From NCBI GenBank assembly GCA_965206645.1, contig CBDBKE010000003.1, positions 768,001 through 832,000 on the forward strand: a DNA stretch of 64,000 nt, written 5' to 3'. The first letter of the stretch is position 1, and the number at the start of each line of letters is the position of its first letter. Below, one piece after another: positions 15,157-36,213 of this stretch. Position numbers and translations under genes: made by a program. Source of the stretch: Terriglobia bacterium (GTDB lineage Bacteria > Acidobacteriota > Terriglobia > JAJPHL01 > JAPKYU01). The notes below the pieces were generated by a model. It was not told the DNA's origin and did not search any database. It worked only from the letters and a program-made list of their open reading frames with translations.

Positions 15157-15333
15157 ACTTATGTGGTCGGTCTCGGTGCAAGCAAGGAATTCGGAACGGA
15201 GAACGCTGGTTTCAGAAACCCCTGGGCGAGTAGGTCCGCCCCGGTCTTTGAATCGCTGAATTTCGATCCTTCACGTTGGGTTGCGGACCCAACGGTCCCA
15301 TTTAAGCCTCTGCATTTTCGAGAGTTGACGTGT

Positions 15334-15351
15334 GGTGTGCAAGAAGTGTGC
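15334..15351 (+). repeat. Left arm-type integrase-binding repeat
   Basis: GGTGTGCAAGAAGTGTGC is the exact reverse complement of 36051-36068. Confidence 0.75.
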
Positions 15352-15368
15352 TGCCTTTTGGGAGCTGC

Positions 15369-15857
15369 ATGAACGAGCGCCGATCCTACTCGCGGCATGG
15401 GCTGAACGTGCTGAAGGCCAGGGTGAAGGTGCGGGGCCTGGCCGCTATTGACATGCGGACGGCGGCGGCTCAGGCCCTTGTTGCCTGGCGATGTGAACTA
15501 CTCTCGGACCTGGGCGGGGAGGAGAGTGTCAGTGCCCAGCAAATGGCCTTGGTGGACATGGCCGTCAGGACGCGGCTGTACGTGGACAGTCTGGACGCCT
15601 GGATTATGGAGCAAGAGTCTCTGGTGAACCGGAAACGCAAGTCGGTCCTGCCGGTGTTGAGGGAGCGCCAGCAACTTGTGGATTCCCTGAGCCGGATACT
15701 GGGACAGGTTGGCCTGGAGAAGAAAGCCAAGCCAGTTCCGGCCCTGGGGGAATATCTGGAGGAGAGGTACGGCGATGGGAAAGCCGACCCTGGGCGCAAG
15801 AAGAACCGACTCCGTACAACAGGAACCAAAAACACCAGTGGGCGCGATTCGCTGTAG
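15369..15857 (+). CDS. Putative terminase small subunit-like protein
   Basis: GGAG RBS; N-terminal RHGL motif, helical, basic tail; directly upstream of TerL (positional inference). Confidence 0.55.
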   Translation: MNERRSYSRHGLNVLKARVKVRGLAAIDMRTAAAQALVAWRCELLSDLGGEESVSAQQMALVDMAVRTRLYVDSLDAWIMEQESLVNRKRKSVLPVLRERQQLVDSLSRILGQVGLEKKAKPVPALGEYLEERYGDGKADPGRKKNRLRTTGTKNTSGRDSL

Positions 15858-16028
15858 GGCAAGCAAAGGCCGATTTCAGGAATCGCTTTCGGTTCCTGTT
15901 GGTTCTCTTTGTACCGAGTCGCAGATTTCAGACTGCAAGCCTGTCGCTACCAGAACCGGCCCGCCTATCGAACACAGGCCAAGCCAGATGGTAAGAACGC
16001 CCATTCCTGGTGAGGACCGAGCAGGCAA

Positions 16029-17522
16029 GTGATGGCGGCAAGACGCACAGCGACATCACCGGCGCTGACTATCCTGGACGCGATGGCGGACCCGTCCCTG
16101 TTCGACCCGTGGTTCCAGGGCCAGAGTTGGGCAGCCTGGAAAGCGTTCCTGGCGGCGCTGTTTGGCTTGCCGATCAACAAGGCCGCCCTGGAGATCTACC
16201 GGCAGCATACTCGCTGCACGTCAGTTCCAGGATTGCCTGCCAGGGAAGCCTGGCTGGTGGTGGGCAGGCGTGGTGGAAAGAGCTTGATAGCGGCGCTTGT
16301 GTCAGTGTTCCTGGCCTGTTTCCGGGACTACCGGAAGATCCTGGCCCCGGGCGAGCGGGGAACCGTCATGGTGATTGCCGCCGACCGGCGCCAGGCGCGG
16401 GTGGTGTTCCGCTACATCGCCGGCTTCCTGGACACGGTGCCGATGCTGACCCGCATGGTGGAGAGCCGAACCAAAGAGACGATCAACCTGACCAACCGGG
16501 TGACGATCGAAGTGCACACGGCAAATTTCCGTGCTGTCCGGGGCTACACCGTTGTTGCCGCCATCTGCGACGAGATCGCCTTCTGGCGGAGCGAAGAAAG
16601 TGCCAATCCGGACACGGAGATCCTGAACGGACTGCGGCCTGGGATGGCGACGGTTCCAGGCGCTCTGCTGCTGTGCATCTCTTCGCCTTACGCCCGGCGC
16701 GGGGCGCTGTGGGAGGTCTACCGGCAGCACCACGGCCAGGACGGAGACCCGATCCTTGTCTGGCAGGCTGACACTCGCAGCATGAATCCATCGGTTGACG
16801 AACAGGTGATTGCAGAAGCCTATGCCCAGGATGAATCAGCGGCAGCGGCAGAGTACGGCGCACAGTTCCGGCGCGACATTCAGGACTTCATCCCCCACGA
16901 GGTTCTGGAATCTCTGGTTGTCGAAGGCCGGCGCGGGTTGCCGCCGGTTTCGGACCTGCGCTACTTCGCCTTCTGTGACCCGTCGGGCGGCAGCCAGGAC
17001 AGCATGACACTGGCGATCGCCCACCATGAGAACGGTCGCGCCCTGCTGGACCTTGTGCTGGAACGGCGCCCGCCCTTCTCGCCGGAAGCGGTGGTGAAGG
17101 AGTTCGTCGCAACCCTCAAGCAGTACAGCATCAACTCGGTGACCGGCGACCGTTACGGGGGCGAATGGCCGCGGGAACGTTTCCGGGAGCACGGCATCTC
17201 CTACGAACCTTCAGAGAAGACCAAGAGTGAGATCTATGGTGAAGTCCTGCCGTCGCTGAATAGCGGCAAGGTGGAGCTGCTCGACAATGCGCGGCTGCTA
17301 TCGCAACTGCGGGGCCTGGAGCGGCGCACTTCCCGCAGCGGACGGGACACGATTGACCACAGCCCCGGCGGCCATGATGACGTGGCGAACGCAGCGGCCG
17401 GCGCACTGATGCTGGCGCTGAAGCGCGGAGCGATGGTTATCCGCTGCCCTACCGGTGTTGGAAGCGAAAGTCCGTCCTTGTGGGAAGTGTTGGGAGGCTT
17501 CCGGTCGAACTACGATTTCTGA
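16029..17522 (+). CDS. Phage terminase large subunit
   Basis: Walker A VGRRGGKS, Walker B AAICDE, coupling motif ISSP, RNase H-like nuclease FCDPSGG, TGDRY, HDDVANA. Confidence 0.88.
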   Translation: MMAARRTATSPALTILDAMADPSLFDPWFQGQSWAAWKAFLAALFGLPINKAALEIYRQHTRCTSVPGLPAREAWLVVGRRGGKSLIAALVSVFLACFRDYRKILAPGERGTVMVIAADRRQARVVFRYIAGFLDTVPMLTRMVESRTKETINLTNRVTIEVHTANFRAVRGYTVVAAICDEIAFWRSEESANPDTEILNGLRPGMATVPGALLLCISSPYARRGALWEVYRQHHGQDGDPILVWQADTRSMNPSVDEQVIAEAYAQDESAAAAEYGAQFRRDIQDFIPHEVLESLVVEGRRGLPPVSDLRYFAFCDPSGGSQDSMTLAIAHHENGRALLDLVLERRPPFSPEAVVKEFVATLKQYSINSVTGDRYGGEWPRERFREHGISYEPSEKTKSEIYGEVLPSLNSGKVELLDNARLLSQLRGLERRTSRSGRDTIDHSPGGHDDVANAAAGALMLALKRGAMVIRCPTGVGSESPSLWEVLGGFRSNYDF

Positions 17523-17535
17523 CGTGGAAAACATT

Positions 17536-17598
17536 CGCTCGCTCGCAATCTTGGAAAAGGCCCTGGGGCCGGAGCATCCCAACGCGGCCGTTAGCCTC
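17536..17598 (+). pseudogene. Isolated fragment of a TPR-repeat gene
   Basis: Translates RSLAILEKALGPEHPNAAVSL, the kinesin-light-chain-type TPR consensus. Confidence 0.65.
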
Positions 17599-18301
17599 AC
17601 TTGTTTCGCTTCAACCCTAAGACTTCCTTTTCTAGAGACTCAAGAATCTTCCGATGAGTTTCCGAATCAGTAGGCGACACAATGTAAAAACGCCTTTCCT
17701 GACTTGGAACACCAGTACGAGCTTCGATGCTTATAAGCTTACTGGCCAAAGTGACCTCGTGATCTTCTAACTTAGGGTCTGCCTCATACCTAACCTCGAA
17801 AGAGAGTTTCTTGAATGCAATAGACTTTGGAATTAAATAATTCGTCGCGAACCTAGATTGGCCATCTCGCTGTACGACTCTTAGAACAGGAGCAGCGATC
17901 AGGTCTTCAAAATCGATGTCTAGCGTCGCGACACACTCGGTTTCCTCAGCAAGAAGTAGCGGCTCTACTCTCTTAGCTTTGGGATCTTTTTGGAAGGACT
18001 CCAATAAACGAGCCAAGGTGGCTGCCACTGAGTTACCAGCCAACGAACTGTCCCGAACCTGGAGTAAAATCCTTCGTTTTTCAACCGCCAGATTCAGTAT
18101 ATGGACCAACTGCTTTCCTTCCTCAAACGTACCATTGTTGAAGATAACTTGGTTAGTTAGCGGGTCGACCTGGGCTTTGTCAAATTGGAAGGAGTTCTTG
18201 ATTATGTTTCTATTGTTAAGTTGGCGTAGCTCGTCAAGCGGCAGAGAGTCGACCGGATACAGCCTAACTTGAGTCACGGTCAGCTGTTCAATATCCTTCA
18301 T
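17597..18301 (-). CDS. Hypothetical protein, third gene of the hicAB-like operon
   Basis: 234-aa AT-richer ORF; start overlaps the hicB stop (ATGA). Confidence 0.75.
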   Translation of the reverse strand: MKDIEQLTVTQVRLYPVDSLPLDELRQLNNRNIIKNSFQFDKAQVDPLTNQVIFNNGTFEEGKQLVHILNLAVEKRRILLQVRDSSLAGNSVAATLARLLESFQKDPKAKRVEPLLLAEETECVATLDIDFEDLIAAPVLRVVQRDGQSRFATNYLIPKSIAFKKLSFEVRYEADPKLEDHEVTLASKLISIEARTGVPSQERRFYIVSPTDSETHRKILESLEKEVLGLKRNK

Positions 18302-18942
18302 TTTCCCCTTGCACTTTCTTGCTGTTCAATGCTCGATCGTGAAGGCCAGGTGTGCTGTTCCGAGGGTGAATCTACAAGAATAAATCGTCGCAGTAAGTCG
18401 TCAGAGAGTGTTTCAGAGGGTGTTGAGATGGAATACTCCCAACTCTGAACTCCAGTGGAGACAGGAAACACCCTTTGGGTCATCTGAGGATGCAAAGGCA
18501 CAAGATAAGTGACCAATTGAGCAATCTGTCCTTCAATCTCCGCCAACCTACTCTTGAGTTCACCAACCTCCTGATTGAGAGTATCTCCAATGACAGCTGC
18601 GGAAAGGAGGTGCACGATGTACTGGTTGAGGCTCGTGCCATACAGCTTTGCTTTGTCAGCAAGCATCGCGTGCAGCGAAGACGGAAGGCGCGCTAGAATG
18701 CGTCCGCTGTATCCTCGCGTACTTGACGGTGGTGGAACTGGAAGTCCGTGGTCGAGGGCGAACTGCAGCCAATCTTTCTTCACTTCCTGGGCGCTGCTGT
18801 AGGCTTCCTCAACAGTTTCCCCAGAAGCTGAACATCCCGGCAAGTCCAAGAATTCTGCAGTGAAGAGCTTATCGTCCTCGTCGAACTCGATCTTCAGTGG
18901 ATAATTCAGGGCCATGAGTTTCGCAAGGGACTCAGCACTCAT
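18298..18942 (-). CDS. hicB: HicB-family antitoxin with ~100-aa C-terminal extension
   Basis: YPLKIEFD..FTAEFLDLPGCSASGETVEEA, RHH YSGRILARLPSSLH..GTSLNQYIVHLL. Confidence 0.85.
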   Translation of the reverse strand: MSAESLAKLMALNYPLKIEFDEDDKLFTAEFLDLPGCSASGETVEEAYSSAQEVKKDWLQFALDHGLPVPPPSSTRGYSGRILARLPSSLHAMLADKAKLYGTSLNQYIVHLLSAAVIGDTLNQEVGELKSRLAEIEGQIAQLVTYLVPLHPQMTQRVFPVSTGVQSWEYSISTPSETLSDDLLRRFILVDSPSEQHTWPSRSSIEQQESARGK

Positions 18943-19298
18943 CAGTCCACCTCCGTGGCTTCCTGTGAAGCAATGACGGCCTTCAGGGCTTCAATCATTT
19001 GCTTTGCCTGACTCTGGTCGAGCTTGCTGATTCGATCCGCACTTCTTCGTGGGCCGTGAGGACGATAAAGGTTTCTAGGATATCTAAAGTGGGGGTCCTC
19101 TCTCAGTAATGGGTGGTAGTACATGACATGGTTCGGGTCGCTGGTGTCCTTCACCTCGAATCCGAGGGACTCTAGTTGGTTTCGGACTTCCTTAAATCGC
19201 CCTCTGCGAACAGCCTCAAGAGCGCACCTAAATTGTTCTTCTGACACTCCACCCTCTGACATCCTAGGACTTGTTCCACAAAGCCTCAGCGCGCTCAT
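18942..19298 (-). CDS. HicA-like toxin (start may be 19262)
   Basis: RFKEVRNQLESLGFEV..NHVMYYHP..RPHG pattern; TGATG overlap with hicB. Confidence 0.6.
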   Translation of the reverse strand: MSALRLCGTSPRMSEGGVSEEQFRCALEAVRRGRFKEVRNQLESLGFEVKDTSDPNHVMYYHPLLREDPHFRYPRNLYRPHGPRRSADRISKLDQSQAKQMIEALKAVIASQEATEVD

Positions 19299-19440
19299 TC
19301 ACTTGATATCACTTGCAGTATCATCTTGTCAACAAAGCCCCCTCTTAGATTGGTAAGCGGAACAGTCACACCGCCCGAGCGAATTTCTAGGAAGAGAGAG
19401 TAACACGTGGGCTTGGAGAGACGTTGAGAGTTCTGGAAGT

Positions 19441-19466
19441 AGTTACATAAATCTGTTTATGTAAGT
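19441..19466. other. dif/Xer-like recombination site
   Basis: AGTTACATAA-ATCTGT-TTATGTAAGT: near-palindromic arms, 6-bp spacer, TTATGT XerD-type half. Confidence 0.6.
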
Positions 19467-19526
19467 GGAATCAATTACTTAGAAGGATTACGCAACCACT
19501 TCTAGGTACTTTCAGAAGGGTTCCTG

Positions 19527-19693: not shown

Positions 19694-22016
19694 TGGAAGC
19701 CCTCCAGCGGCGTCAAACTTGAAGCGGTTCAGCTTGCCCGGAACAGGTATGATGACATGGCAGCAAGAAGCGAATGCACATGACTCACCTCGAAAACTTC
19801 CAGCCCCCCGCCGCAGTCCAGGGCATTCTGCCCGACTAAGGCGTTACAGTGGCCAGCGTGCAGTCGTCTTGCTCAGGGCGCCCATGACCAACCGATTGAG
19901 CGTGTTATGACCCGCGACAAGATCACTCTCTCCCAGCTTGAAAGCTTTCTTCTCAAATCCGCCGACATTCTTCGCGGAAAGATGGACGCCTCTGAGTTCA
20001 AGGAATTCATCTTCGGTCTGCTCTTCCTTAAGCGGCTCTCTGACGAATTTGATCGCAAGCGCGAGAATCTCCGCAAAAAGGACTTTGCCCACATCACCGA
20101 TCCTGCCCTTCTCAAAGAGCTACTCGACGATAAAACCTCCTACGGCGACACCTTCTTCGTGCTGGTCCGCCCTCGTGCCGGTCCGCGCTCGTTGGCATGA
20201 GTCCTGGAAGGACGAAAAGGGCGACGAGGTTCCTGCGCTCAAAGACCTCAAGCAAGACATTGGCAACATGCTCAGCAAGGCGCTCGCGGCCGTAGAAGAC
20301 GAGAATGACGCGCTCGCCGGCGTGCTCAAGAACAACATCAATTTCAACGCCATCAAAGGGAAGACCAAAATTCCCGACCAGAGGTGGAAAGACCTCCTCG
20401 ACCACTTCAACCAGCCGCAGTTCGTGCTGGTGAATGACAATTTCGAGTTCCCCGACCTTCTGGGAGCGGCTTACGAATATCTGATCAAATACTTCGCCGA
20501 CAGCGCCGGCAAAAAGGGCGGCGAATTCTACACACCCGCCGAAGTCGTTCGTCTGCTCGTGCAGCTCGTAAAGCCGCGCGCAGGCAATGAAATCTATGAT
20601 CCCACCGTGGGCTCCGGCGGCTTCCTGATTCAAAGCCACCTGTACATAGAAGAGCAGGGTGAAGACCCGAACGACCTCGCCCTCTACGGCCAGGATTCAA
20701 TCGGCGCCGTCTGGTCCATCTGCATCATGAACATGATCCTCCACAACATCACGCGCTTCACGATTGAGAACGCGGATACCCTGGAGGACCCCCAGATACT
20801 GGACCACGGACAGATTCGCAAGTTCGACCGCGTGCTAGCCAATCCGCCTTTCTCCCAGAACTACAGCCGCGCCACTCTGAAGTTTCCCTCGCGCTTCCGC
20901 GAATGGTGCCCTGAGACAGGCAAGAAAGCCGACCTCATGTTCGTCCAGCACATGCTGGCCAGCCTCAAGTCTGACGGTCACATGGCCACCATCATGCCTC
21001 ACGGCGTGCTATTCCGCGGCGGCAAGGAAAAGCTGATCCGCGAACTCTTTATCAACGACGATGTGATCGAAGCCATCATCAGCCTGCCCCCCGCCCTTTT
21101 CTACGGGACGGGTGTTCCCGCATGCGTCCTCGTGATGAACAAGAACAAGCCCGACGCATTGCGTGGCAAGGTGCTCTTCATTAACGCCGACCGCGAGTAT
21201 GCTGAGGGCAAAAACCAGAACAAGCTGCGCCCTGAAGACATTGAAAAGATTGATTTCGTCCTCAGCCAAAAGCGGGAGCTACCCAAATACAGCCGTCTCG
21301 TGGACAAGACGGAGATCGTTGATAAGCACGACTACAACCTCAACATCCGCCGCTACGTGGACAACACGCCCGACCCGGAACCGGAGGACGTGCAGGCACA
21401 CCTCATCGGCGGCGTGCCAGAGGGAGAAGTGAGAGCCAGACACAGCGATTTCGCCAAGTTTGGCGTCGCTGCTGACACGCTATTCCAACCCAAACGACCC
21501 GGCTATCTCGCCTTCCGCACGAACATCACAGCCAAGTCAGCAATTAAGACCACATTGGAATCTGATGCAGCGTTGAAAAAGACCTTCACCGCCCACCACG
21601 ACGCACTGGAGGCATGGTGGGGCGTCGCCCGCGACGACTTTGCCCAGCTTCGCGAGGGCAAGAAAATGCCTGAGGTCCCGCAGGAACTGCTCAAGACTAT
21701 CAAGAGCAAGCTTATTCCTCTGGGCGTGCTTGACGAATTCAAAAGTGCGGGAGTCTTCGTGAACTGGTGGCAGCAGATTCGCTACGACCTCAAGACCATC
21801 ATCTCCACCGGCTGGCATCACACGCTAATTCCCGATTCCTATCTGATCGCCGAATTCTTTCAGGCGGAAGCCGATGCCATCGAGGCGCTGGAAGCCAAGA
21901 TCGGTGAGATCCAGAGCGAACTGGCTGAAGCTGTGGAGACCGCGAAGGAAGTCGCCGCCTATGAACCGGAGGAAGACGAAACCGTCACCGCCGCGGTCAT
22001 CAAGAAAGCCCTTAAA

Positions 22017-23665: not shown

Positions 23666-24257
23666 CTTAAGAGTTGATTGACGACCTCAAGGACAGCAAG
23701 GGAGAATCGGCGCAGAAGGAACTCAAGGCTCTTCAAGCCCAGGGAAAAGCCGTTACCACCCTTGAGAAACGAATCAAGGAGAGCAAAGCCGAACTCAAGA
23801 CACTGACTGACGAACTGGAATACAAGCTCCAGCTCAAGCGCCTCGGTGGCGGCGAATTCAAAACCGAGAGCCAGCAACTTCTCACCCAGGTGGACACCCG
23901 ACTCGGCGCCCTCGATAAGAGCAAGAAGGAGGACAAGAAGAAAATCTCCGCTCTGGAAAAGGACAAGACGACCTTGGAGGCGCGGATGGCCAAAACCGAT
24001 GCCCTTGTTGCCAGCATCGGCGGCCAGCTTACCGAGGCAGAAGCCAAGACCCTCATCCTGAAAAAGCTCTACGACCTCGCCAACCAGGAACTTAATCGCT
24101 ACCTCAATGCCGAGAAGCGGCAGCTGATCCAGATTGTCGAGAATCTCTGGGACAAATACGCAGTATCTAACCGTGTTCTGGAATCCAAGCGAACTGAAAG
24201 CCTCAAGGCATTAGATGGGTTTCTTGTTCGATTGGGGTATGTGCAGGGCGAATTGAG

Positions 24258-28400: not shown

Positions 28401-28606
28401 TTGGCGACGTGGACCGCGAGCTAAAACTGACAGGTTTCTGGGAAAGCATCCCGGCCCGGAACAAACTCAAGGCGGATGTTCAAAAGACACTGCTTCAGAA
28501 CAACTTTTCCAAGTTGCCGGGTCTGGTGAAGAATCGCGCCCACATCATCAGCCGCGTGATGGAGGTCGCGGAAAAGAACAACGATACGATCCTGTACGCC
28601 CCATGA
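25474..28606 (+). pseudogene. hsdR: Type I R-M restriction subunit HsdR (amber stop 25717-25719, +1 frameshift near 26172)
   Basis: PDIVLFLNGLP..IECKS, WHTQGSGKS, DEAY (vs DEAH), TGTP, MLLTGFDAP, QAIARVNR. Confidence 0.9.
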
Positions 28607-30039
28607 TCGACATTTGCTACGAAATCGTGCGTTCCCCTAAACGAAAGACGCTCACCATTACGGTCGAGCGGGATAGGGCGATTACCGTCCATGCGCCGGA
28701 GGGCACATCCGACAGCGAGATACAGCGGCTTGTCGATGCAAAGCGTCAGTGGATATTGGCAAAGCTCCGCCACCTGCAGAAATATCAGGAGCGCTTGCAT
28801 CCGCCCGGCAAGGAAGTGGTGAATGGAGAATCGGCCCCCTACCTCGGAAGGGACTACCGAATCGAAATCACCAAAACTCTGAGCGGTGAAATTGAGTTCT
28901 CCAGCCTTTTTCTAATCCCACCCACGCATCAGGCCAAACGTCGTAAAGTCCTGCGGGATTGGTATATTGCGCGCGCCAGAGAAAAGATTCTCGCCCGCGC
29001 GGAAGAACACGCGCACGCGCTTGGCGTAAAATTCGTCGCAGCCAAGATTGTTGATAATCGTTACCGCTGGGGCTCCTGCACTGTCAAGGACAACGTCAGT
29101 TTCAATTGGCGGCTCATCAAAGCGCCCATGTTCGTCACTATGCCAGCTCAACCGGTCGATGACGTTAAATCGTTCTGCCGGAGTTTCAAACTTCTGACGG
29201 GGCCGTTCGTTCAGCTGACGTGCCACCTTGTTCAGATGCGCCTGAGAGTGCACCGACAAGTCCGTTCCCTTGGGGAAGTACTGTCGGAGTAGACCGTTGG
29301 TGTTCTCATTCGAACCGCGCTGCCATGGACTCTGAGGATCACAGAAGTATACGTCAATGTCGGTCGCCAACGTGAACCGTCGATGCTCGGCGAGCTCCAC
29401 GAACTCGCTCATCTCATCGAGACCAACCACACGTCCCGTTTTTTGGAACATTGTGATCTGTCCTCGTCCCGCGCAAATGAACAAACAGGCTGCGGTAGAT
29501 GGTCTCGTGAGACACGTGATAGGACGGATCCTTCCTCTAGAATGGATGCTTGGCTGACACCGCTTCGGCCGGCGGGCCCTCTCCCCGGCTTGCTCAAAGT
29601 CATTATCGCCGCCATTCCGCCGAATCTCCCGGCTCACCGGCGTAATGTGCCGCAATGCCTCGAGAGATCTCTTCGCGCTCCGACAACGTCAGTGCCCAAC
29701 ATGAACGGCGTGGTGGCCGAGGACGGATGCCTCCGTACGGAGCAAGCTTACAAAACACTCGTCCAATCGACTTGAGCGACTCCCCTCGTTTCCACCGATC
29801 CCACACCTCCTCCAGTTCCGCCAGCGTGTAACCGCGACGAGCTCTTTGCTTCATCCGCATACACTCCACCTCCTCCTTTCAAGGCAAAGTGCTACGTTAT
29901 TGTCCACGAACTCGCTCATCTCATCGAGACCAACCACACGTCCCGTTTTTGGAACATTGTCCGCGCAAATACCTCTAGAATGGAAAAGGCAAAGGCTTGG
30001 CTGAAAGAACGAGGGCAGGTTTTGGAAGAGGAAGTCTAG
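28603..30039 (+). pseudogene. M48/YgjP(DUF45)-family metalloprotein gene interrupted by IS30 sequence
   Basis: [23 protein letters not shown]; resumes at ~29892 with [20 protein letters not shown] to TAG 30039. Confidence 0.85.
29138..29891 (-). mobile_element. Internally deleted IS30-family remnant
   Basis: [58 protein letters not shown]. Confidence 0.85.
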
Positions 30040-30211
30040 ACCGTTATGGAGTTCTCCAACAGCTTCATTCGACCAGTGGGGAGTTCACAATAACAAACAG
30101 CCCTGTTGCTATCAGACAGGTGTCCATTGACCTGGACAAGCGACTTCATACATTCGTGGACGAATATAGGCTACTTTGCCAGCCAACTGTTTGCAAATGT
30201 GGCCAGCGACC

Positions 30212-30607
30212 ATGCCGAGCTCTGACCCAATAGCGAGGCTGCGGAGAATCGCCCAAGACGTTTACCGAACTTTGGGCTCAGGATTTTCAGAGCAGGTATA
30301 CGATCGGGCAATGCAGGTGGGCTTGCGACTTGCAAAGATTCCATACCAAAGTCAAAAGGTGGTGGAGCTAAAGTACAAGGACCACTATGTAGGAGAGGGC
30401 TACCCGGACCTTGTAGTTCGCGTTGGGAGGAGACGGGTGGCAGTGGAGCTGAAGGCTGTTAGTGGACAATTGGGAGACTCAGAAGAGCAACAGTTGCGAA
30501 ATTACATGCGGCTACTCGGCATCAAGTGGGGGCTTCTCATTAATTTTCAGCAGCCAGGCAGGAAGAAAGGGAAGACAAAGCTGGAGATTCGGGAAAGTGA
30601 AATCTAG
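30212..30607 (+). CDS. GxxExxY protein (PD-(D/E)XK-like)
   Basis: LGSGFSEQVY, PDLVV, VELKAV, QLRNYM, GLLINF. Confidence 0.9.
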   Translation: MPSSDPIARLRRIAQDVYRTLGSGFSEQVYDRAMQVGLRLAKIPYQSQKVVELKYKDHYVGEGYPDLVVRVGRRRVAVELKAVSGQLGDSEEQQLRNYMRLLGIKWGLLINFQQPGRKKGKTKLEIRESEI

Positions 30608-31042
30608 AGATGAATTCGCCCGTTCAGGTTTCATTTGAGTTCCTTTCTACCAAATCTACCCACGAAGATGTTCCCACATCGGGACCGCCCTGGGAGGCTG
30701 CCGAGATATGGTGCGAGAAGATGAGCGGCACCGAATACGGGACCTGGCGTTATCCTTCTTGTTCGCCAGCGTCTCTTCGAGAAGTCGCTATTCGTTGGTA
30801 TCCGTAGCTTTGCCGCCTTGGCCGAGGTCCTGACTGGCGACGAGGCACCACCACCACCCGCCACCTAAAAGCCTTCCTCCGCGCACCGGTTACTTAGAGG
30901 TCGTTGGGATATAGTAAGCGTTAGGGACAACGATCCTGCAACCGACAGTGACCACCACACTGAAACTGACCCACTAGCGATTGCCCGTAGCAGCGCCAAT
31001 TGGTTAAGGTGCAAGAGAGAACTTGTGTCGTCACCGATGTGG

Positions 31043-31258
31043 TCAACAGCGGGCTGTCGGCCGTGGTCGTTTGACTCGTTGGTCCAACCGTCTGGCTTCT
31101 TCCCGGAAGGCATTGGCCATCTCGGTATACGCCAGCGCATGTAATCGCAGAAACCGGGCTCGCGCGAGGAGGGACGTTTCTGATGTAAGCTCTGCAATTC
31201 TGTCCATTGCTTGCGCTCGGCCATGTGCTTTCATTACTGATTCAAGACGCCTGCTCAT
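31043..31258 (-). CDS. Small hypothetical protein
   Basis: 71-aa helical ORF after purine-rich AAAAGGGAAACGA. Confidence 0.35.
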   Translation of the reverse strand: MSRRLESVMKAHGRAQAMDRIAELTSETSLLARARFLRLHALAYTEMANAFREEARRLDQRVKRPRPTARC

Positions 31259-31493
31259 TCGTTTCCCTTTTCTCGCGTTTCTTCGCCTCTCGCTTTCTTG
31301 CCGGACCCTGGCGCCGTCTCACTGTCTCAACTCAGGTCGCTGTTCCGGGAGTGAGGCCCGTCATCCCCACCGCCAGCACCTGATGACGAATAGCTCAGCG
31401 GACCACTAGGTCTTTCATGCCCCAGACGTGACCCGTGACCCCCGCTCAGGTCGTCCAGGAAGCGGGCGAGCCGGTAGAGGAAAGTGCGGAGGG

Positions 31494-32177
31494 TCATCGG
31501 CCCTTCCCTCCACGTTTCCTTTCCGCTTGCAGTTGGTCCTGCATGAGGGCTTTGTACCAGGACGGCCCCTGAACCTTGACTCGCAAAGGCCGGGCTTTTC
31601 TGAGTTCGGGCGGCAAAGCAACGTAAGAGGGAATCGGGTTTTCTTTTCTCCGGGTCGCCGCGATGTACTCATTTTCGTTTTTCTTCGATCTCCAGGGGGC
31701 GAACATGAGAAGTCCTTCCACCCGGCGGTTGATCTCATCCCGCTCAACGGCTCTTTGCCCCATGAAGAGACACATCGCAGCGTCCCACCTTTCTGCAAGG
31801 GGCGCATCGGAAGCAGCCAAGGTGACTCGGTAGAACCATTGCACCATCTCGTTGGTGGGACGGCCCCAGCGGTTTTCGTTACGAAAGCGTAGTAGCTCAA
31901 GCGCAGTGCTGCCGGCTTCCCACGGGAACGCCCCGGACTGCACGGACTCGGGCCAGGAAAATGAAAGGTAGGGCTGCTGTTCTGATGCTTCAAGTTTTCT
32001 GAATTCTTTCAGGATGCGCCCCACCGTTCGGTCACTTGGTAGGCGTTTGGCTTCTGATCTTCCCAGTGCTTCTCTCTTAAGTTTTTCCCACACCCATTTG
32101 GCGCTCGCCTTCGGGTTGTTTGCGGCAATTACCCGAATCCGTTCCTCCCATTGCTTGTCTGTCTTTGGTCGTGGCAT
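31494..32177 (-). CDS. Putative DNA-binding regulator (N-terminal HTH-like)
   Basis: ASAKWVWEKL..LPSDRTVGRILKE; divergent from the HTH/Xis operon. Confidence 0.55.
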   Translation of the reverse strand: MPRPKTDKQWEERIRVIAANNPKASAKWVWEKLKREALGRSEAKRLPSDRTVGRILKEFRKLEASEQQPYLSFSWPESVQSGAFPWEAGSTALELLRFRNENRWGRPTNEMVQWFYRVTLAASDAPLAERWDAAMCLFMGQRAVERDEINRRVEGLLMFAPWRSKKNENEYIAATRRKENPIPSYVALPPELRKARPLRVKVQGPSWYKALMQDQLQAERKRGGKGR

Positions 32178-32233
32178 CGGCGTGGCTCCATTTCGTTTCT
32201 GAATTGGCAAATATCTTATTTGGTCTGGCTCAT

Positions 32234-32273
32234 TAGACAGTTCAAGTGTCTAGTATCTAGGTCATACTGTCAA
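32234..32273. promoter_or_regulatory. Divergent control region
   Basis: IR TAGACA-N7-TGTCTA; minus-strand TTGACA at 32268-32273. Confidence 0.45.
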
Positions 32274-32303
32274 GGATAATTGTCCGGTACGGGAGGCAAA
32301 CGA

Positions 32304-32510
32304 GTGACAAGACGAGATTCGGAAATCTTATTCACGGCTGGCGAAGCGGCGGCAGTGTTGGAGAGATCGTCGGACACCGCTCGCCAATTGGAGCGCGCCG
32401 GTATTCTCCGGGCGGCCTATAAGACAAAAGGTGGCATCCGCCTCTTCCGGCCAGAGGACGTGCAAAAACTTGCGGAGGAACGGAAGCGTAAGGCGGAGAC
32501 GGCGAAGTGA
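32304..32510 (+). CDS. MerR-type HTH (excisionase-like) protein
   Basis: FTAGEAAAVLERSSDTARQLERAGIL..TKGGIRLFRPEDV; GGAGG RBS. Confidence 0.75.
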   Translation: MTRRDSEILFTAGEAAAVLERSSDTARQLERAGILRAAYKTKGGIRLFRPEDVQKLAEERKRKAETAK

Positions 32511-32980
32511 AGGAGAGCATGTTGGCTTCCCAGGTTGAACCGCGCCCCCAACCGCAGCTTGTGCGAGAGGTCGAACCCAGGATCACCTGGGTGGAGTACC
32601 CGCACATCGAGCCGGGCGAGTACGCGGCGGCTTCAGGGCGTGCGTTCATATACTTCGACCGGTTCTTCAACCGTCACGTCTGTCTGGTTCGTTTCACTGT
32701 GGTCGATGATGGGGGGGGAGATGTACTCGCACGGCTCCCCTGGTTCCTGAACCTGGGTAGTGGCCCGCATCCGAGGGCCGGCAGGCGAGGTCGCTATTGG
32801 AATGAGTGGCTGCGGGCTAATGGGCGGCCACCAAAGCGCCGCGACCGGCTGGCGCCAAGAGTTTTTGAACATCGGGCGGCACGTGTTCAGGTTGGCGATA
32901 CAACAATGCCCTTTCGAGAGGACCGCGAGTTTGACGCCTACTCGGTCATTAGAGAAGTCCTACGGTGGGAAACAGGCTGA
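32507..32980 (+). CDS. Hypothetical phage-type protein, possibly OB-fold
   Basis: GTGA overlap; IEPGEY start followed by beta-strand pattern. Confidence 0.6.
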   Translation: MKESMLASQVEPRPQPQLVREVEPRITWVEYPHIEPGEYAAASGRAFIYFDRFFNRHVCLVRFTVVDDGGGDVLARLPWFLNLGSGPHPRAGRRGRYWNEWLRANGRPPKRRDRLAPRVFEHRAARVQVGDTTMPFREDREFDAYSVIREVLRWETG

Positions 32981-33207
32981 GAGGGTCAACCAAGTCAATG
33001 TTGTCACCCAGTCAAGGAAAGGCAGCACCAAGTGATGGGCGGAGAAGGGATTGCAGGTATTCCTTGTCAGGAACGATTGCGGTTTTCAGGCTTCGGCGCT
33101 GGCCGGCGTCGAGGGGTGAATCCAACTCAATGAACCCCAAGGGGCGCGCCTGGCGCGAACCGGGCGCGCCCAAAGGCAAACTGATCGCGCGACAAGCATA
33201 ACACGAA

Positions 33208-33321
33208 ATGGCTTCCTCTAACTCCAAACTCGGCATCGTTCCCGACCTGGCAGTAGTGGCGGACCCGGCAGCGGTAAACGACCTTCCCGAGGAGCATATC
33301 GAACAAGGAGGGACGTTTTAG
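33208..33321 (+). CDS. 37-aa ORF paralogous to the N-terminus of 34342-34719
   Basis: MASSNSKLGIVPDLAVVADP vs MALECKLGIVPDLTAIAADP. Confidence 0.5.
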   Translation: MASSNSKLGIVPDLAVVADPAAVNDLPEEHIEQGGTF

Positions 33322-34227
33322 TGAAGGGCAAGGTGTGTAGCTGGCGCGACATGCGCCGCATCAAGCACATCTTGGAGAACCCAGACCGACTAAAGGGTGA
33401 GCTAGCATCACTGACGGCTTGTGCTGGTAGGACGACTTGGTATGACTGGGAAAAAGCCATCGGGGTTATGGACTCTTGTCGCTTAAGCGACACTGTCCAT
33501 TTTCAGCCGACTCACGCTCGCGAAATAGCCCGCCATGCGCCTCAGGATGAGTGGGCCAGGTGGGCACAGCGATGCGAAACGGAGAGGCTGACCGTCGCAG
33601 AGCTTCGTGGGCGGCTGCTCGCCAGCCGGCAGAAACAGTCGCACGAGCAGGCTGCCGCAACGGCCCCCGGAGGGCAAATATAGGACGATCACGGTGGACC
33701 CGCCGTGGTCCTATCAGAACAAATCGGGGCGCCACGCGCCGGACTACGGCAAAGACAACCGCGTGATGACGCTAGACCAGGTTGTCTCGTTCGACGTCCA
33801 GCGATGGGTCCCCGAGGACGCCTGCCATCTGTACCTGTGGGTCACGGACGCCTACGTGGGGGGCGTCGGCCGGATATTGGAGGCGTGGGGCTTCGCGCCC
33901 AAGGCGATGCTGGTCTGGGTCAAGGACAGGATCGGGATGGGGAACTACTTCCGCCACCAGCACGAGCTCTGCGTGTTCGCGACCAGCGGGCGGCTGAGGC
34001 TGGCGCGCATGGACGCCTCAACGGTCTTCAGGGCGCCGGTGAAGAGGCACAGCGAGAAGCCGGACGAGTTCTACTCGCTGGTGGAGTCGTGCTCCCCGCC
34101 GCCCTATCTGGACGTGTTCGCGCGCAGGAGAAGGCCCGGATGGGACGTATACGGAGATGAGGTCTCAGCCGCTCGAAGGCAGGGCAACAGCGGGGGACCT
34201 AAGGACGGCAGTTGCCCAGGGGCATAA
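33321..34227 (+). pseudogene. MT-A70-family adenine methyltransferase split by a 1-bp frameshift near 33664
   Basis: KYRTITVDPPW, HLYLWVT, GMGNYFR..HE, HSEKP, DVFARR; removing one C from GGCCCCCGG fuses the 120-aa upstream ORF. Confidence 0.8.
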
Positions 34228-34341
34228 ACGGGAGCCGATGATCCCGGTGAACGCTATATCCACCCGCCGAGGGTCTCCGCAGAATAGAGAGACTGGCTGA
34301 GCAAGCGGCAGCCGAAGGAAGGCAACCGGATTCAGTAGAGC

Positions 34342-34719
34342 ATGGCCCTTGAATGCAAACTCGGCATTGTCCCGGACCTGACCGCAATAGCGGCGGACCC
34401 GGACGTGGCGCGCCAACTGACGGCGGACCAGGTGGAGGCGCTCCTGGCGGCCTGCTCCGTGTGCCAGGCGGCTCTGGTAAACCGGCTCCTGCTGTTGCGG
34501 GCCAGCAGCAACGGACAGGGCCAGGCGCAAGGGAGCGGGGACCGGTTACTGAGCGCGAAGGAAACGGCGGATCGGCTCGGTGTGAGCTTGGACTACGTTT
34601 ATAAACACGCCCACCAATTCCCCTTTGCCAGGCACGAAGGACGGCGGGTGCTGTTCTCCGAGCGCGGCCTGGAGCGGTATCTCCAGGGAAAGACGGAGAA
34701 GAAATCTCTTGACATCTAG
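34342..34719 (+). CDS. Excisionase-like HTH_17 protein
   Basis: RLLSAKETADRLGVSLDYVY...GRRVLFSERGLERYL. Confidence 0.78.
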   Translation: MALECKLGIVPDLTAIAADPDVARQLTADQVEALLAACSVCQAALVNRLLLLRASSNGQGQAQGSGDRLLSAKETADRLGVSLDYVYKHAHQFPFARHEGRRVLFSERGLERYLQGKTEKKSLDI

Positions 34720-34736
34720 ATATCTAAATATACAGC
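34709..34736 (+). promoter_or_regulatory. Putative promoter/operator for the RHH-integrase operon
   Basis: TTGACA at 34709 followed by palindrome TAGATATCTA (34717-34726). Confidence 0.45.
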
Positions 34737-34779
34737 CATTGGCATGGGGAAGCACCCAACTAAAAGGAGGGTAACTGAT

Positions 34780-34932
34780 ATGCCAGTGAAAAAGACCGTC
34801 AAGACTTCCATGCGGCTTCCGGCGGACCTATGGACAGCCGCCCGTATTGAAGCGATCAAGCGGGGCGTGGACGCCCAGGACATCGTTACCGAGGCCCTGA
34901 GTCTCTGGTTCAGGAAAGGGGGTGCACGATGA
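34780..34932 (+). CDS. Ribbon-helix-helix protein
   Basis: AGGAGG RBS; KTSMRLPADLWTAARIEAIKRGVDAQDIVTEAL; ATGA overlap with the integrase. Confidence 0.7.
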   Translation: MPVKKTVKTSMRLPADLWTAARIEAIKRGVDAQDIVTEALSLWFRKGGAR

Positions 34933-36041
34933 GAGGCGACGGAGCAGTGTTCAAGCACCCCCGAAGCAAGTTCCTCTGGATTCGGTACTCCCATCGGGGG
35001 AAGCTCTATCGGGAAACCACCGGGACAGTAGACCCGAAGAAGGCCGCGAAGCTGCTCAAGCAAAAACTCGCGGGGATTGCGGCTGACAAGCACGGTATAG
35101 CCGAGTTTGTTCCCAACAGCCAATTGCGGGTGCGGGACTTGCTGGACGCCCTGGAAGCCGACTACAAGCTCAGGGAGGTTCGGAGCGTCCCGCAGGTGCA
35201 AGCCCACCGTAAACCGCTGCTGGAAATCCTGGGCGGAATCCGAGCGCAGGACCTGGGCTCTGAAGCGATAGACCGTTATATCGAGAAGCGGCTGCAGGCC
35301 GGCAAGGCCAAGGCTACCGTGAATCGGGAGACACGGATACTCGGCCAAGCCTTCCGGCTGGCAATCCAGCGCAAGAAGCTTAGGACGGCCCCAATAATCC
35401 GGCGGCTATCCGAAAAAGGCAACCGGCGGGAGGGGTTCTTTGAGGCCAATGAATTTGAGGCTGTGCTTTCCAACTTGCCGGACTACCTGAACGGCTTTAC
35501 GCACTTCGGGTATCTCTCCGGCTGGCGCAAAGGCGAGATTGCCTCACTGCAGTGTCCCGATGTTGACCTGATGGGGAAGGTGATCCGGTTGAGGCCCGGG
35601 CACTCCAAAAACGGATGCGGAAGGGTCCTGGCCCTGGAAGCCGAGTTGTGGGAGATCGTGGAGCGGCAATGGAGAATGCGTGAGTATCAGAAGCCGGACG
35701 GGACAGCCGGGCTTTCCCTATACATCTTCCAACGCGACGGCGCCCCCATCGGCGACATTCGCAAGGCGTGGGCGACGGCCTGCAAGAAAGCCGGTGTCAA
35801 GAAGCTCTTCCATGACTTCCGGCGAACCGCAGCCCGCAACATGCGTCGCGCTGGTGTCCCCGAAGATGTTGTCATGAAAGTCCTGGGCCACAAGACCCGT
35901 AGCATGCTCGCAAGGTACGATATCGTCAATGAGGGCGACATACGGGAGGCCGTGCTCAGGACCCAGCAGTACCTACGGTCCGTTCCACCACAACAAACAG
36001 TTGTCCCCTTCCAGAAAGAAGCAGCCGGAGGGGTTCAGTAA
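34929..36041 (+). CDS. Tyrosine recombinase/integrase
   Basis: Catalytic set GWRKGE, SKNG, HDFRR, LGHKT, RYD; N-terminal arm-binding-like WIRY..GKLYRETTGT. Confidence 0.93.
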   Translation: MRGDGAVFKHPRSKFLWIRYSHRGKLYRETTGTVDPKKAAKLLKQKLAGIAADKHGIAEFVPNSQLRVRDLLDALEADYKLREVRSVPQVQAHRKPLLEILGGIRAQDLGSEAIDRYIEKRLQAGKAKATVNRETRILGQAFRLAIQRKKLRTAPIIRRLSEKGNRREGFFEANEFEAVLSNLPDYLNGFTHFGYLSGWRKGEIASLQCPDVDLMGKVIRLRPGHSKNGCGRVLALEAELWEIVERQWRMREYQKPDGTAGLSLYIFQRDGAPIGDIRKAWATACKKAGVKKLFHDFRRTAARNMRRAGVPEDVVMKVLGHKTRSMLARYDIVNEGDIREAVLRTQQYLRSVPPQQTVVPFQKEAAGGVQ

Positions 36042-36050
36042 TGCGAAGTT

Positions 36051-36068
36051 GCACACTTCTTGCACACC
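36051..36068 (+). repeat. Right arm-type integrase-binding repeat
   Basis: GCACACTTCTTGCACACC (tandem TGCACAC units), inverse of 15334-15351. Confidence 0.75.
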
Positions 36069-36136
36069 TGCACAAGAATAGTGCAATTCGCTTTTTGAGC
36101 AGTGGAGCTAAATCTTTGGGAACAAAATCGAAAGGT

Positions 36137-36213
<77 letters not shown>

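What the first reader, a model, noticed from the sequence alone, without database searches (positions are those of the whole stretch)
15279..36145. tRNA-fMet-integrated element with full terminase pair but no capsid, portal, tail or replicase: candidate new satellite type
Seen: a ~20.9 kb unit with both ends identifiable, an intact integrase, RHH, two Xis-like HTHs, a divergent regulator, MT-A70, and at the far end a TerS-like ORF plus a TerL with intact ATPase and nuclease motifs. The middle is defence-type cargo. Established: PICIs typically encode only TerS, cf-PICIs encode capsid+portal+TerS+TerL, and P4-like satellites carry no terminase. Inference: a 'terminase-only' element supplying its own packaging motor to hijack helper procapsids fits none of these classes.
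Basis: partly seen in the sequence, partly recalled or inferred. Interest (0 to 1): 0.82.

Follow-up and report, generated by a model that had tools for sequence, protein, structure and literature searches.

The report
Decayed satellite-like element with own terminase
This is a broken, probably immobile copy of a widespread small integrative element that carries both terminase subunits but, in most copies examined, no portal or tail genes, an element type that none of my literature searches turned up.

Summary
The genes are there. An intact tyrosine integrase lies beside tRNA-Met(CAT). There are also two HTH_17 (AlpA/Xis-like) genes, MT-A70, a type I R-M/HicB cargo, a TerS-like gene and a TerL with all conserved motifs. 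No portal, capsid or tail gene was found. "Both ends identifiable" fails. The proposed left att is chance-level, and the genome holds no second copy of the tRNA-Met 3' segment. An IS21 copy without target duplication sits 431 bp upstream of terS.

TerL relatives (45-77% identity) are not followed by portal genes, with 3 exceptions in 84 loci. They sit in discrete elements of 8.9-19.9 kb flanked by 27-63 bp tRNA-derived repeats (24 loci). The order is integrase, regulators, primase/helicase, terS, terL. A capsid gene is present in 5 loci.

The five delimited relatives with the window's gene order all have a 4-5.7 kb left arm, four of them with a Pfam-recognised helicase/primase. So the window copy has most likely lost attL and its replicase, and "no replicase" is a truncation artefact.

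No TerL above 32% identity occurs in 50,697 phage records. Seven literature searches found no description of this family. The family is a candidate new satellite variant. This copy is a relic.

The parts
12350..14937 (-). IS21-family element (istB 12540-13304; istA in two ORFs, 13304-13699 and 13712-14803). It forms the present left border and is not part of the element.
   Evidence: Pfam IstB_IS21 1e-71 and Mu-transpos_C_2. At least 11 near-identical full copies in G000. This copy has no target-site duplication, whereas two other copies have one.
14938..15368 (.). Unique 431-bp spacer between the IS21 copy and terS. It holds no attL and no remnant of a replicase gene. It contains one copy of the 18-nt repeat (15334-15351).
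   Evidence: Alignment to the tRNA region is at chance level. blastx gives no hit to any ORF of the related loci. Unique in the genome. The junction is present in contigs of runs from two studies.
15369..15857 (+). TerS-like gene. The ORF opens at 15330, but homology to relatives starts at 15368.
   Evidence: 29 phmmer hits, all immediately upstream of TerL. Conserved family of 51 sequences. AlphaFold2 pLDDT 81, all-helical. Foldseek hits are not significant (best E 0.12) but are enriched in small terminases, including HK97 8pop. phrog_1496 terS E 0.0087.
16029..17522 (+). Terminase large subunit, intact ORF of 497 aa.
   Evidence: TerL_ATPase, phrog_2 and phrog_9. Weak match of residues 355-457 to a solved TerL nuclease domain. 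Family-conserved G79-K84, D181-E182, S218-S219-P220, D317, D374 and D450-D451 are retained. It is the only TerL_ATPase hit in the genome.
17597..19298 (-). A 234-aa hypothetical ORF, a HicB-like antitoxin (18298-18942) and a 118-aa ORF (18942-19298).
   Evidence: HicB_lk_antitox 4.5e-9 and HicB 1.1e-8. The other two ORFs have no family hit. The atlas returns only hypothetical-protein clusters.
19938..29892 (+). Type I restriction-modification cargo: hsdM 19938-22049, a 195-aa ORF 23674-24261, hsdS 24258-25487, hsdR 26021-28606, and YgjP-like 28603-29292 plus 29383-29775. An IS4-type element (22011-23670, transposase 22231-23607 on the minus strand) and a 754-bp insertion (29138-29891) interrupt it.
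   Evidence: N6_Mtase 2e-99, Methylase_S 1e-30, SWI2_SNF2 1e-66, YgjP 7e-36, DDE_Tnp_1_4 6.5e-117. At least 10 copies of the IS in G000. Contigs of X1, X4 and X5 join 29137 to 29892 with TAGA in between.
30176..30607 (+). PD-(D/E)XK nuclease family gene (cargo).
   Evidence: PDDEXK_3 1.2e-27.
30865..32210 (-). A 119-aa ORF and a divergent 238-aa putative regulator.
   Evidence: Weak HTH_32 (0.003) and weak phrog_310 HTH region.
32280..34719 (+). Integrase-proximal module: HTH_17/MerR-like (AlpA/Xis-type) 32280-32510, 157 aa 32507-32980, 78 aa, 120 aa, MT-A70 33607-34227, HTH_17 34342-34719.
   Evidence: Pfam and PHROG hits. The 157-aa, 76-aa and 125-aa genes have homologues inside the att-delimited element L025.
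34929..36041 (+). Tyrosine integrase, intact.
   Evidence: Phage_integrase 7e-20. Catalytic motifs present in the translation. Closest homologue is the integrase of the att-delimited element L031, 9e-61.
36051..36068 (+). 18-nt sequence that is a perfect inverted copy of 15334-15351. Function unknown; possibly an operator or an arm-type site.
   Evidence: 2 matches in the window against 0.08 expected. Not seen in 5 relatives.
36137..36213 (-). tRNA-Met(CAT) with initiator-type features. Its 3' part, 36136-36181, is the att-equivalent segment.
   Evidence: ARAGORN. Synteny with G001 and G003 resumes exactly at 36136. G001 carries a 45-64 bp repeat of this segment around its own 6.6-kb island.

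Best explanation
The window holds a decayed, probably no longer mobile copy of a small tRNA-integrating element. The complete form of this element type encodes a tyrosine integrase, AlpA/Xis-type regulators, a primase/helicase, a TerS-like protein and a full TerL. Most copies examined show no portal or tail genes, and a recognised capsid gene is uncommon.

Inferred mechanism of the complete form: a helper phage triggers excision and replication. The element's own TerS-TerL pair then recognises and cuts the element's DNA and pumps it into procapsids supplied by the helper. This resembles a PICI that brings the motor as well as the specificity subunit.

Shown for the window copy: the right end (int next to tRNA-Met) and terS-terL are intact. 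About 14 kb of lower-GC cargo, holding a type I R-M system, HicB and nucleases, fills the variable slot downstream of terL. Three IS-type insertions lie in or beside the element.

Inferred for the window copy: the left arm (attL plus the replication module, 4-5.7 kb in relatives) was lost through an IS21-associated rearrangement. The copy therefore cannot excise by attL x attR recombination.
For: Family architecture:
- In 84 related loci (TerL 41-77% identity), 55 have an integrase, 49 a TerS-like gene and 38 a recognised primase/helicase cluster within 10 kb.
- 24 of the 55 loci with both int and TerL are flanked by perfect 27-63 bp repeats, mostly tRNA-like, spaced 8.9-19.9 kb apart.
- In four of the smallest (L063 8.9 kb, L056 9.1 kb, L073 9.7 kb, L031 10.7 kb) the only ORFs of 300 aa or more are int, a replication-position gene (828 aa and unannotated in L056), TerL and, in L056 and L063, a capsid gene.
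- Portal families were found in 3 of 84 loci and Pfam Phage_capsid in 5. The tested set was 102 downstream ORFs plus 20 portal-sized ORFs.
- TerL forms a clade of 82 rows (SH-aLRT 100) far from portal-linked phage TerLs of 26-28% identity.
- None of 50,697 phage records has a TerL above 32% identity.
- 3,228 cluster representatives match at E<=1e-30.

The window belongs to this family:
- terS, terL, int and three small genes have homologues in the att-delimited elements L025 and L031.
- Five relatives share the order terS-terL-x-int-tRNA.

Truncation:
- No attL in the window or the genome.
- The IS21 copy has no target duplication, and other IS21 copies in the genome have swapped flanks.
- Synteny with two congeners is broken from tRNA-Gln to tRNA-Met.
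- All 5 same-order relatives have a 4-5.7 kb left arm. It holds AAA_25 in L003, L031 and L046, D5_N in L004, and an unannotated 856-aa ORF in L025.

Decay is usual in this lineage:
- The 77% copy (L002) is a solo terS-terL between host-like genes.
- In the G003 copy TerL is split into 140 + 422 aa.
- Fragments with stop codons occur in G003 and G017.
Against: - No experiment or virome read shows that any member is packaged. The IMG/VR loci have no terminal repeats and may be predicted proviruses.
- A TerL without its own portal must dock on a foreign portal, which was not tested.
- TerS identity rests on position, a weak PHROG hit and non-significant fold matches.
- Portals were screened with Pfam and PHROGs on selected ORFs only. 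Several 450-850-aa ORFs in the larger elements have no family hit or were not scanned (L054, L061, L066, L067, L069, L078), so divergent portals are possible there.
- The 431 bp upstream of terS is non-coding and carries one arm of an 18-nt inverted repeat whose other arm lies beside attR. This could mean that the original left end lay close by and that this lineage never had a replicase.
- terS, terL and int remain intact although mobility seems lost, which might point to a retained function.
- No helper-type capsid, portal or second terminase was found in the genome with 5 Pfam families. The control genomes did not ring for one of these, DUF4055.
Confidence: 0.6

Rival explanations
1. One reading: a complete, mobile, replicase-less "terminase-only" satellite of 20.9 kb with both att ends at 15279 and 36145.
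For: The gene list is right. The 431 bp before terS is non-coding and holds one arm of a perfect 18-nt inverted repeat paired with the attR side. The G025 copy has int directly upstream of terS-terL with no replicase in between.
Against: The proposed attL is chance-level and the tRNA 3' segment is not duplicated anywhere in the genome. An IS21 copy without target duplication abuts the element. All 5 att-delimited relatives with this gene order have a 4-5.7 kb left arm, 4 with a recognised helicase/primase. The G025 copy has neither att repeats nor a tRNA.
Confidence: 0.08
2. An ordinary prophage remnant: a full temperate phage lost its portal-to-tail genes and replication genes by deletion, leaving int and the terminase genes.
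For: True phages with this TerL type exist. L082 (58% identity) has terS-terL followed by a DUF4055 portal and a Mu F-like protein, and L095 has Phage_portal_3. The genome is rich in IS elements and rearranged.
Against: The same portal-less architecture recurs in 24 att-delimited elements of only 8.9-19.9 kb across several phyla, with the replicase directly upstream of terS. The genes after terL are unrelated singletons in the nearest relatives, that is, a cargo slot rather than head-gene debris. No head or tail gene fragment was found with Pfam or PHROGs.
Confidence: 0.12
3. A composite island: the terS-terL piece and the int-proximal module come from different elements, and insertions at tRNA-Met or IS-mediated rearrangement brought them together.
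For: GC content differs between the cargo (0.50-0.58) and terS-terL/int (0.60-0.64). There are three IS-type insertions, and synteny is broken across the whole 9-36 kb stretch.
Against: terS, terL, int and three small int-proximal genes co-occur inside single att-delimited elements (L025, L031) in the same order and orientation.
Confidence: 0.1
4. A retained terS-terL cassette with a host-level role. It might package the adjacent chromosome and defence cargo in situ into helper capsids, as in lateral transduction, or it might interfere with phage packaging.
For: terS and terL remain intact in three decayed copies (G000, L002, G025). The cargo lies downstream of terL. A 286-nt contig from an RNA library is identical to terL 17196-17481; this is weak, because the library may contain DNA. 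One paper, seen only as a title and abstract start in the listing, reports PICI-mediated lateral transduction of defence systems (PMC12829572).
Against: The G003 copy has a split TerL, and other fragments carry stop codons, as expected for neutral decay. No pac site has been defined. No helper genes were found in the genome.
Confidence: 0.08

Closest known systems
PICI (phage-inducible chromosomal islands), as defined for SatelliteFinder in de Sousa et al. 2023, PMC10085698 (passages read)
   Same: Integrase at one end, an AlpA/MerR-type regulator, a primase-replicase, then a small terminase. Size about 9-15 kb, with accessory genes after terS. The complete relatives match this layout.
   Different: PICIs carry terS only and rely on the helper's TerL. 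[quoted passage not shown] This family always carries a full TerL. The window copy has no primase-replicase.
cfPICI (capsid-forming PICI), same paper plus the Alqurainy et al. preprint 10.1101/2022.09.08.507074 (search listing only)
   Same: In the four families covered by de Sousa et al. 2023 (passages read), terL is a core component only of cfPICI. cfPICI TerL and capsid genes were captured from phages.
   Different: cfPICIs have 11 core components, including capsid, portal, protease, head-tail adaptor and connector, and at least 9 are needed for a call. Here portal and connector families were not found in 81 of 84 loci, and a Pfam capsid is present in only 5.
P4-like satellites
   Same: Integrase plus a D5/primase-helicase backbone in some relatives (D5_N, Prim-Pol). 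Dependence on a helper for the virion is inferred.
   Different: The Psu/Sid/Delta functions were not searched for by name. No Pfam or PHROG hit of that kind appeared among the ORFs scanned.
VEIMEs, PICI-like tycheposons and PICMIs (PMC9618062 and 10.1101/2020.12.28.424599, passages read; PICMI abstract only)
   Same: Small tRNA- or site-integrating elements with an integrase and a replication module, proposed or shown to be packaged by helper phages.
   Different: The passages read mention small terminase or capsid genes only. The VEIME paper names large terminase as a helper function. PICMIs have reduced gene content and no capsid-remodelling genes (abstract start).
Defective or cryptic prophage
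   Same: Integrase beside a tRNA, terminase genes, IS insertions and decay.
   Different: The portal-less layout is shared by many att-delimited elements far too small to be phages. The replicase sits directly upstream of terS. No head or tail gene debris was found.

Membership tests
PICI | Integrase at one end | tested here: met
   Phage_integrase 7e-20; catalytic motifs present in the translation.
PICI | AlpA/MerR/Stl-type regulator | tested here: met
   Two HTH_17 genes. phrog_66 'excisionase and transcriptional regulator' 1e-6 and MerR_1 1.7e-4.
PICI | Primase-replicase module | tested here: not met
   None among the window ORFs scanned. Present in 38 of 84 related loci and in 4 of the 5 same-order att-delimited relatives.
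PICI | Small terminase | tested here: inconclusive
   A conserved 120-175-aa helical protein directly upstream of TerL. phrog_1496 E 0.0087. Foldseek gives small-terminase hits at E>0.1.
PICI | No other phage structural or packaging genes such as terL | tested here: not met
   A full-length TerL is present.
cfPICI | Large terminase | tested here: met
cfPICI | Major capsid, portal, prohead protease, head-tail adaptor and connector | tested here: not met
   No such Pfam hit in the 26 window ORFs scanned, 10 of them also scanned with PHROGs. The largest ORF without a significant family match is 247 aa. The genome-wide Phage_capsid and Phage_portal searches gave no match.
Integrated mobile element able to excise | Direct att repeats at both ends | tested here: not met
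   No second copy of the tRNA-Met 3' segment in the window or the genome. The left candidate is at chance level. Relatives have 27-63 bp repeats.
Phage satellite (functional definition) | Packaged in virions made by a helper phage | not testable with these tools
   Only sequence context is available. The IMG/VR loci lack terminal repeats. The contigs laid show presence in two studies, not encapsidation.
Defective prophage | Remnants of head, tail or lysis modules, or close relatives that are full phages | tested here: not met
   No such remnants. 81 of 84 related loci lack a portal family hit, and 24 are att-delimited at 8.9-19.9 kb.

The most novel reading that the evidence does not exclude
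The complete relatives are a distinct class of phage satellite. They bring a full TerS-TerL packaging motor, and sometimes a capsid protein, but rely on the helper for portal, head completion and tail. That would make them terminase-autonomous parasites whose TerL must dock on a foreign portal. Decayed copies such as this one may still cut at their pac site and launch in-situ packaging of the downstream defence cargo, as in lateral transduction.
Probability: 0.3. Interest if true: 0.8.

Novelty: new variant of a known kind. Interest (0 to 1): 0.6.

Why it matters
In the satellite literature I read, satellites either borrow the helper's TerL (PICI, PLE) or build the whole capsid themselves (cfPICI); that P4 also borrows the helper's terminase is recalled. 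A large and phylogenetically broad family that carries terS and terL, a replicase and an integrase, but no portal, would fill the gap between these two groups.

It would raise a testable question about how specific TerL-portal docking is. It would also flag thousands of "phage terminase" genes in soil and marine genomes as markers of small mobile elements rather than of prophages. For this window the practical message is the reverse: a terminase gene next to an integrase and a tRNA is here neither a prophage nor an active satellite, but an IS-eroded relic carrying a type I R-M system.

Tried and rejected
- **Left att site.** blastn-short and Smith-Waterman alignment of the tRNA region against the window and the 431-bp spacer gave only chance-level matches.
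- **Empty site in congeners.** G001 and G003 share no gene with the window to the left of tRNA-Met. The G001 left flank maps 320 kb away in G000, inverted. No clean empty site could be reconstructed.
- **Partner IS21 copy.** I looked for a copy carrying the missing flank. None of the 11 full copies matched the window's flanks.
- **18-nt inverted repeat.** I looked for it in 5 relatives and found none. It stays unexplained.
- **Terminal repeats.** None in 6 IMG/VR contigs.
- **Atlas look-ups.** The 234-aa and 195-aa ORFs returned only hypothetical-protein clusters.
- **PDB sequence search with TerL.** Only E about 0.05 to a TerL nuclease domain.
- **Foldseek on the TerS-like model.** Nothing at E<=0.001.
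- **Helper prophage in G000.** No match for Phage_capsid, Phage_portal, Terminase_6C or DUF4055. The control genomes did not ring for DUF4055, so that result says nothing.
- **Excision joint.** The read laying could not test this, because the two ends are 20.8 kb apart and a laid stretch is limited to 20 kb. No part without cover is used as evidence.
- **Phylogeny.** The careful tree did not finish in 300 s, so I used treekit's quick tree.
- **Not run.** The metagenome-contig scan, the search for homologous proteins, complex prediction and a second structure job were also not used.
- **Literature.** Seven searches and passages of six papers did not show this element type. Supplementary files were not seen. 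They may list TerL-bearing elements, for example among the VEIME or SatelliteFinder datasets.

Full report
**1. What is in the window**

ARAGORN finds tRNA-Met(CAT) at 36137-36213 on the minus strand. Its sequence has the C1/A72 pair and the GGG:CCC anticodon stem.

To the left of the tRNA, on the plus strand, lie these genes:
- a tyrosine integrase, 34929-36041 (Phage_integrase 7e-20);
- an HTH_17 gene, 34342-34719;
- MT-A70, 33607-34227;
- several small ORFs;
- a second HTH_17/MerR-like gene, 32280-32510;
- a divergent 238-aa ORF with a weak HTH.

The integrase translation shows GWRKGE, HDFRR, LGH and ARY.

At the far left are a TerS-like ORF (15330/15369-15857) and TerL (16029-17522). TerL matches TerL_ATPase at 8.8e-6, phrog_2 at 8e-23 and phrog_9 at 4e-20.

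Between the two ends lie a 234-aa ORF, HicB, and a type I R-M system (hsdM, hsdS, hsdR). A YgjP-like gene and a PDDEXK_3 nuclease follow. GC content is 0.50-0.58 in this middle part, 0.60-0.64 at terS-terL and int, and 0.62-0.68 in the flanks.

No capsid, portal, tail or replication family was hit in any of the 26 ORFs between the proposed ends scanned with Pfam (10 also with PHROGs). The largest ORFs without a significant family match are 247, 238 (weak HTH only), 234 and 195 aa. RHH and TPR annotations were not reproduced.

**2. TerL and TerS**

I aligned 86 TerL relatives. The window protein keeps the family-conserved residues:
- G79-R-R-x-G-K84;
- D181-E182;
- S218-S219-P220;
- D317;
- D374;
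- D450-D451.

It departs from a residue conserved in at least 85% of sequences at three positions only: C63, G201 and G303. Reading these as Walker A, Walker B, the coupling motif and the nuclease acidic residues is my recalled knowledge.

TerL is the only TerL_ATPase match in the 4.4-Mb genome.

The upstream ORF belongs to a conserved family of 51 sequences, always placed directly before TerL. AlphaFold2 gives an all-helical model with pLDDT 81. Foldseek finds nothing at E<=0.001. However, small terminases stand out among the top hits. In BFVD they take ranks 2, 4, 5 and 6, and the HK97 small terminase 8pop is rank 3 in the PDB search. I call the gene TerS-like, not proven.

**3. The ends**

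The right end is sound. Synteny with two genomes of the same genus (G001 at 95% identity, G003) resumes exactly at 36136, the 3' end of the tRNA. G001 has its own 6.6-kb island at this tRNA, flanked by a 45-64 bp repeat of the tRNA 3' part.

The left end is not sound:
- No second copy of that tRNA segment exists in the window or anywhere in G000.
- 431 bp upstream of terS lies an IS21-family element (12350-14937), one of at least 11 near-identical copies.
- This copy has no target-site duplication, while two other copies have one (GTCGAG; TTCCC). Some pairs of copies have exchanged flanks, which shows IS21-mediated rearrangement in this genome.
- Everything between tRNA-Gln (8966) and tRNA-Met lacks synteny with the congeners. 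G001's left flank of tRNA-Met lies 320 kb away in G000, inverted.

Contigs of public runs from two studies contain the same IS21/spacer/terS junction (X1; X4 and X5), so the junction is not an assembly artefact.

**4. Relatives**

A scan of one genome per species gave 136 confirmed TerL relatives, of which 80 were kept. IMG/VR gave 14 more. I clustered 2,176 ORFs from these loci. Setting aside four distant phage contigs (26-28% identity) leaves 84 loci:

| Feature within 10 kb of TerL | Loci (of 84) |
|---|---|
| Integrase | 55 |
| TerS-like family | 49 |
| Recognised replication cluster (AAA_25, D5_N+DUF5906, Prim-Pol, VapE, DUF3987) | 38 |
| Pfam Phage_capsid | 5 |
| Portal family | 3 |

I scanned 102 ORFs downstream of TerL (at most two per locus) and 20 further portal-sized ORFs. 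Among them:
- Phage_capsid occurs 5 times, and the DUF2213 / head maturation protease 5 times.
- phrog_617 (major head protein) occurs 7 times.
- Tape-measure or minor tail families occur in four loci (L013, L055, L087, L088).
- The portal families are in L082 (DUF4055 followed by a Mu F-like protein), L095 (Phage_portal_3) and L084 (weak).

So real phages with this TerL type exist, but they are the exception.

In 24 of the 55 loci that hold both int and TerL, perfect direct repeats of 27-63 bp flank both genes. Most of these repeats are visibly tRNA-derived. They are spaced 8,852 to 19,885 bp apart. The gene order inside is integrase, small regulators, primase/helicase, terS, terL, then zero to a few variable genes.

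Four of the smallest elements (8.9-10.7 kb) contain no unassigned ORF of portal size.

**5. Same-order relatives**

Five relatives share the window's permutation (terS-terL-x-int-tRNA):

| Locus | Repeat | Element size |
|---|---|---|
| L003 | 48 bp | 11.4 kb |
| L004 | 45 bp | 11.7 kb |
| L025 | 39-44 bp | 14.7 kb |
| L031 | 27-47 bp | 10.7 kb |
| L046 | 42 bp | 13.2 kb |

In four of the five the integrase ends at a tRNA gene. All five have 4-5.7 kb to the left of terS. That arm holds AAA_25 (L003, L031, L046), D5_N (L004) or an unannotated 856-aa ORF (L025).

The genes between terL and int in these elements are unrelated singletons. This position is therefore a variable cargo slot, and it is where the window carries its 14 kb of R-M and toxin-antitoxin genes.

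The window's integrase is closest to that of L031 (9e-61). Three small int-proximal genes have homologues in L025. The two ends of the window unit therefore belong to one element type.

**6. Phylogeny and abundance**

In a quick maximum-likelihood tree, 82 TerL rows form one clade (SH-aLRT 100), separated by long branches from the four portal-linked phage TerLs. The three portal-bearing contigs are nested inside the clade. The careful search did not finish.

tblastn against 50,697 phage records gives 6 hits, all partial, with at most 31.5% identity. A full HMMER scan of 1.84 billion cluster representatives gives 3,228 proteins at E<=1e-30. The lineage is therefore large and essentially absent from sequenced phages.

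**7. Decay in this lineage**

Of 41 related genomes, G000 included, 6 have a match at E<=1e-20:
- The 77% copy (L002) is a solo terS-terL pair among host-like genes (DUF4331, TPR, HEAT/MFS).
- The 88% copy in G003 has TerL split into 140 + 422 aa and lies among repeated IS-like ORFs.
- G025 has int-terS-terL without att repeats or a tRNA.
- Shorter fragments with stop codons occur in G003 and G017.

The window's own cargo is also eroded. An IS4-type element (22011-23670, at least 10 copies) replaces the last codons of hsdM. A 754-bp derivative of a multi-copy element splits the YgjP-like gene. Contigs of three runs join 29137 to 29892 directly, with TAGA in between.

**8. Interpretation**

The best reading is a relic of an integrase + replicase + terS + terL element that has lost attL and its left arm. 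The complete elements look like PICIs that also carry the large terminase. I infer that they are helper-dependent satellites which package themselves with their own motor into helper procapsids. Nothing here shows packaging.

The main points against this reading:
- There are no virion data.
- TerS identity is unproven.
- The portal screen of the larger elements is incomplete.
- The non-coding spacer with the 18-nt inverted repeat (2 matches against 0.08 expected; not seen in 5 relatives) could mark an original left end close to terS.

**9. Literature**

The passages read give the following:
- SatelliteFinder paper: terL is a core component only of cfPICI, which also needs portal, capsid, adaptor and connector. 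[quoted passage not shown]
- VEIME paper: small terminases only, with large terminase named as a helper function.
- Tycheposon preprint: terS or capsid.
- PLE paper: PLE lacks its own TerL.
- A 2024 review lists P4-like, PICI, cfPICI, PICMI, VEIMEs, tycheposons and a soil family.

Seven searches found no description of int-replicase-terS-terL elements without a portal.

**10. Verdict**

- **Observation:** partly confirmed.
partly supported.
- **This copy:** a relic.
- **The family:** a candidate new variant of phage satellite, worth a bench test.

Noticed in passing
window 15334-15351 and 36051-36068: A perfect 18-nt inverted repeat. One arm lies 18 bp upstream of the terS start, overlapping a TTGAC-like hexamer. 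The other lies 10 bp after the integrase stop. Only 0.08 matches are expected by chance. It is not found in 5 relatives. It may be an operator or an integrase arm site.
   Followed up: partly
window 29138-29891: A 754-bp insertion splits the YgjP-like gene. Its ends are 91-95% identical to many copies of a longer element in G000, so it looks like a non-autonomous derivative. Contigs of runs X1, X4 and X5 join 29137 to 29892 with TAGA in between, so a form without the insertion exists at full local depth. A 48-nt perfect direct repeat (29396/29903) straddles its right border.
   Followed up: partly
window 22011-23670 and 9049-9722: An IS4-type element (DDE_Tnp_1_4 transposase) with at least 10 copies in G000 is inserted at the 3' end of hsdM, so the last ~13 codons of the hsdM ORF are IS sequence. 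A 674-bp fragment of the same element lies just after tRNA-Gln.
   Followed up: partly
G000 genome-wide (IS21 copies, e.g. C2:670082 and C2:755100; C4:835463 and C3:857552): Pairs of IS21 copies carry each other's target-site flanks (TCCCCA/CAGAT; ATCGCCA). This indicates recombination between copies and large rearrangements. The genome shows an IS expansion, with copies 99-100% identical.
   Followed up: partly
L104 12548-19183 (G001, same tRNA-Met): The congener carries a different 6.6-kb island at the same tRNA-Met, flanked by a 45-bp perfect repeat. Its ORFs are 419, 122, 485 and 1000 aa, with no similarity to the window's element. The site is a hot spot for integration.
   Followed up: no
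L048 1-11491: Two TerL-bearing units sit about 10 kb apart on one contig: terL-x-int-tRNA-Arg, then an AAA_25 helicase, a 242-aa ORF and terL. This looks like tandem or neighbouring elements of the same family.
   Followed up: no
L013, L087, L088, L055: Some relatives of 16-20 kb carry a tape-measure or minor tail gene, and L013 also a capsid gene, but no recognised portal. They may be intermediates between the small elements and full phages.
   Followed up: no
window 8893-12349: The stretch between tRNA-Gln and the IS21 copy has low GC (0.57) and only small unannotated ORFs. It has no counterpart in G001 or G003. It may be another island remnant at tRNA-Gln.
   Followed up: no
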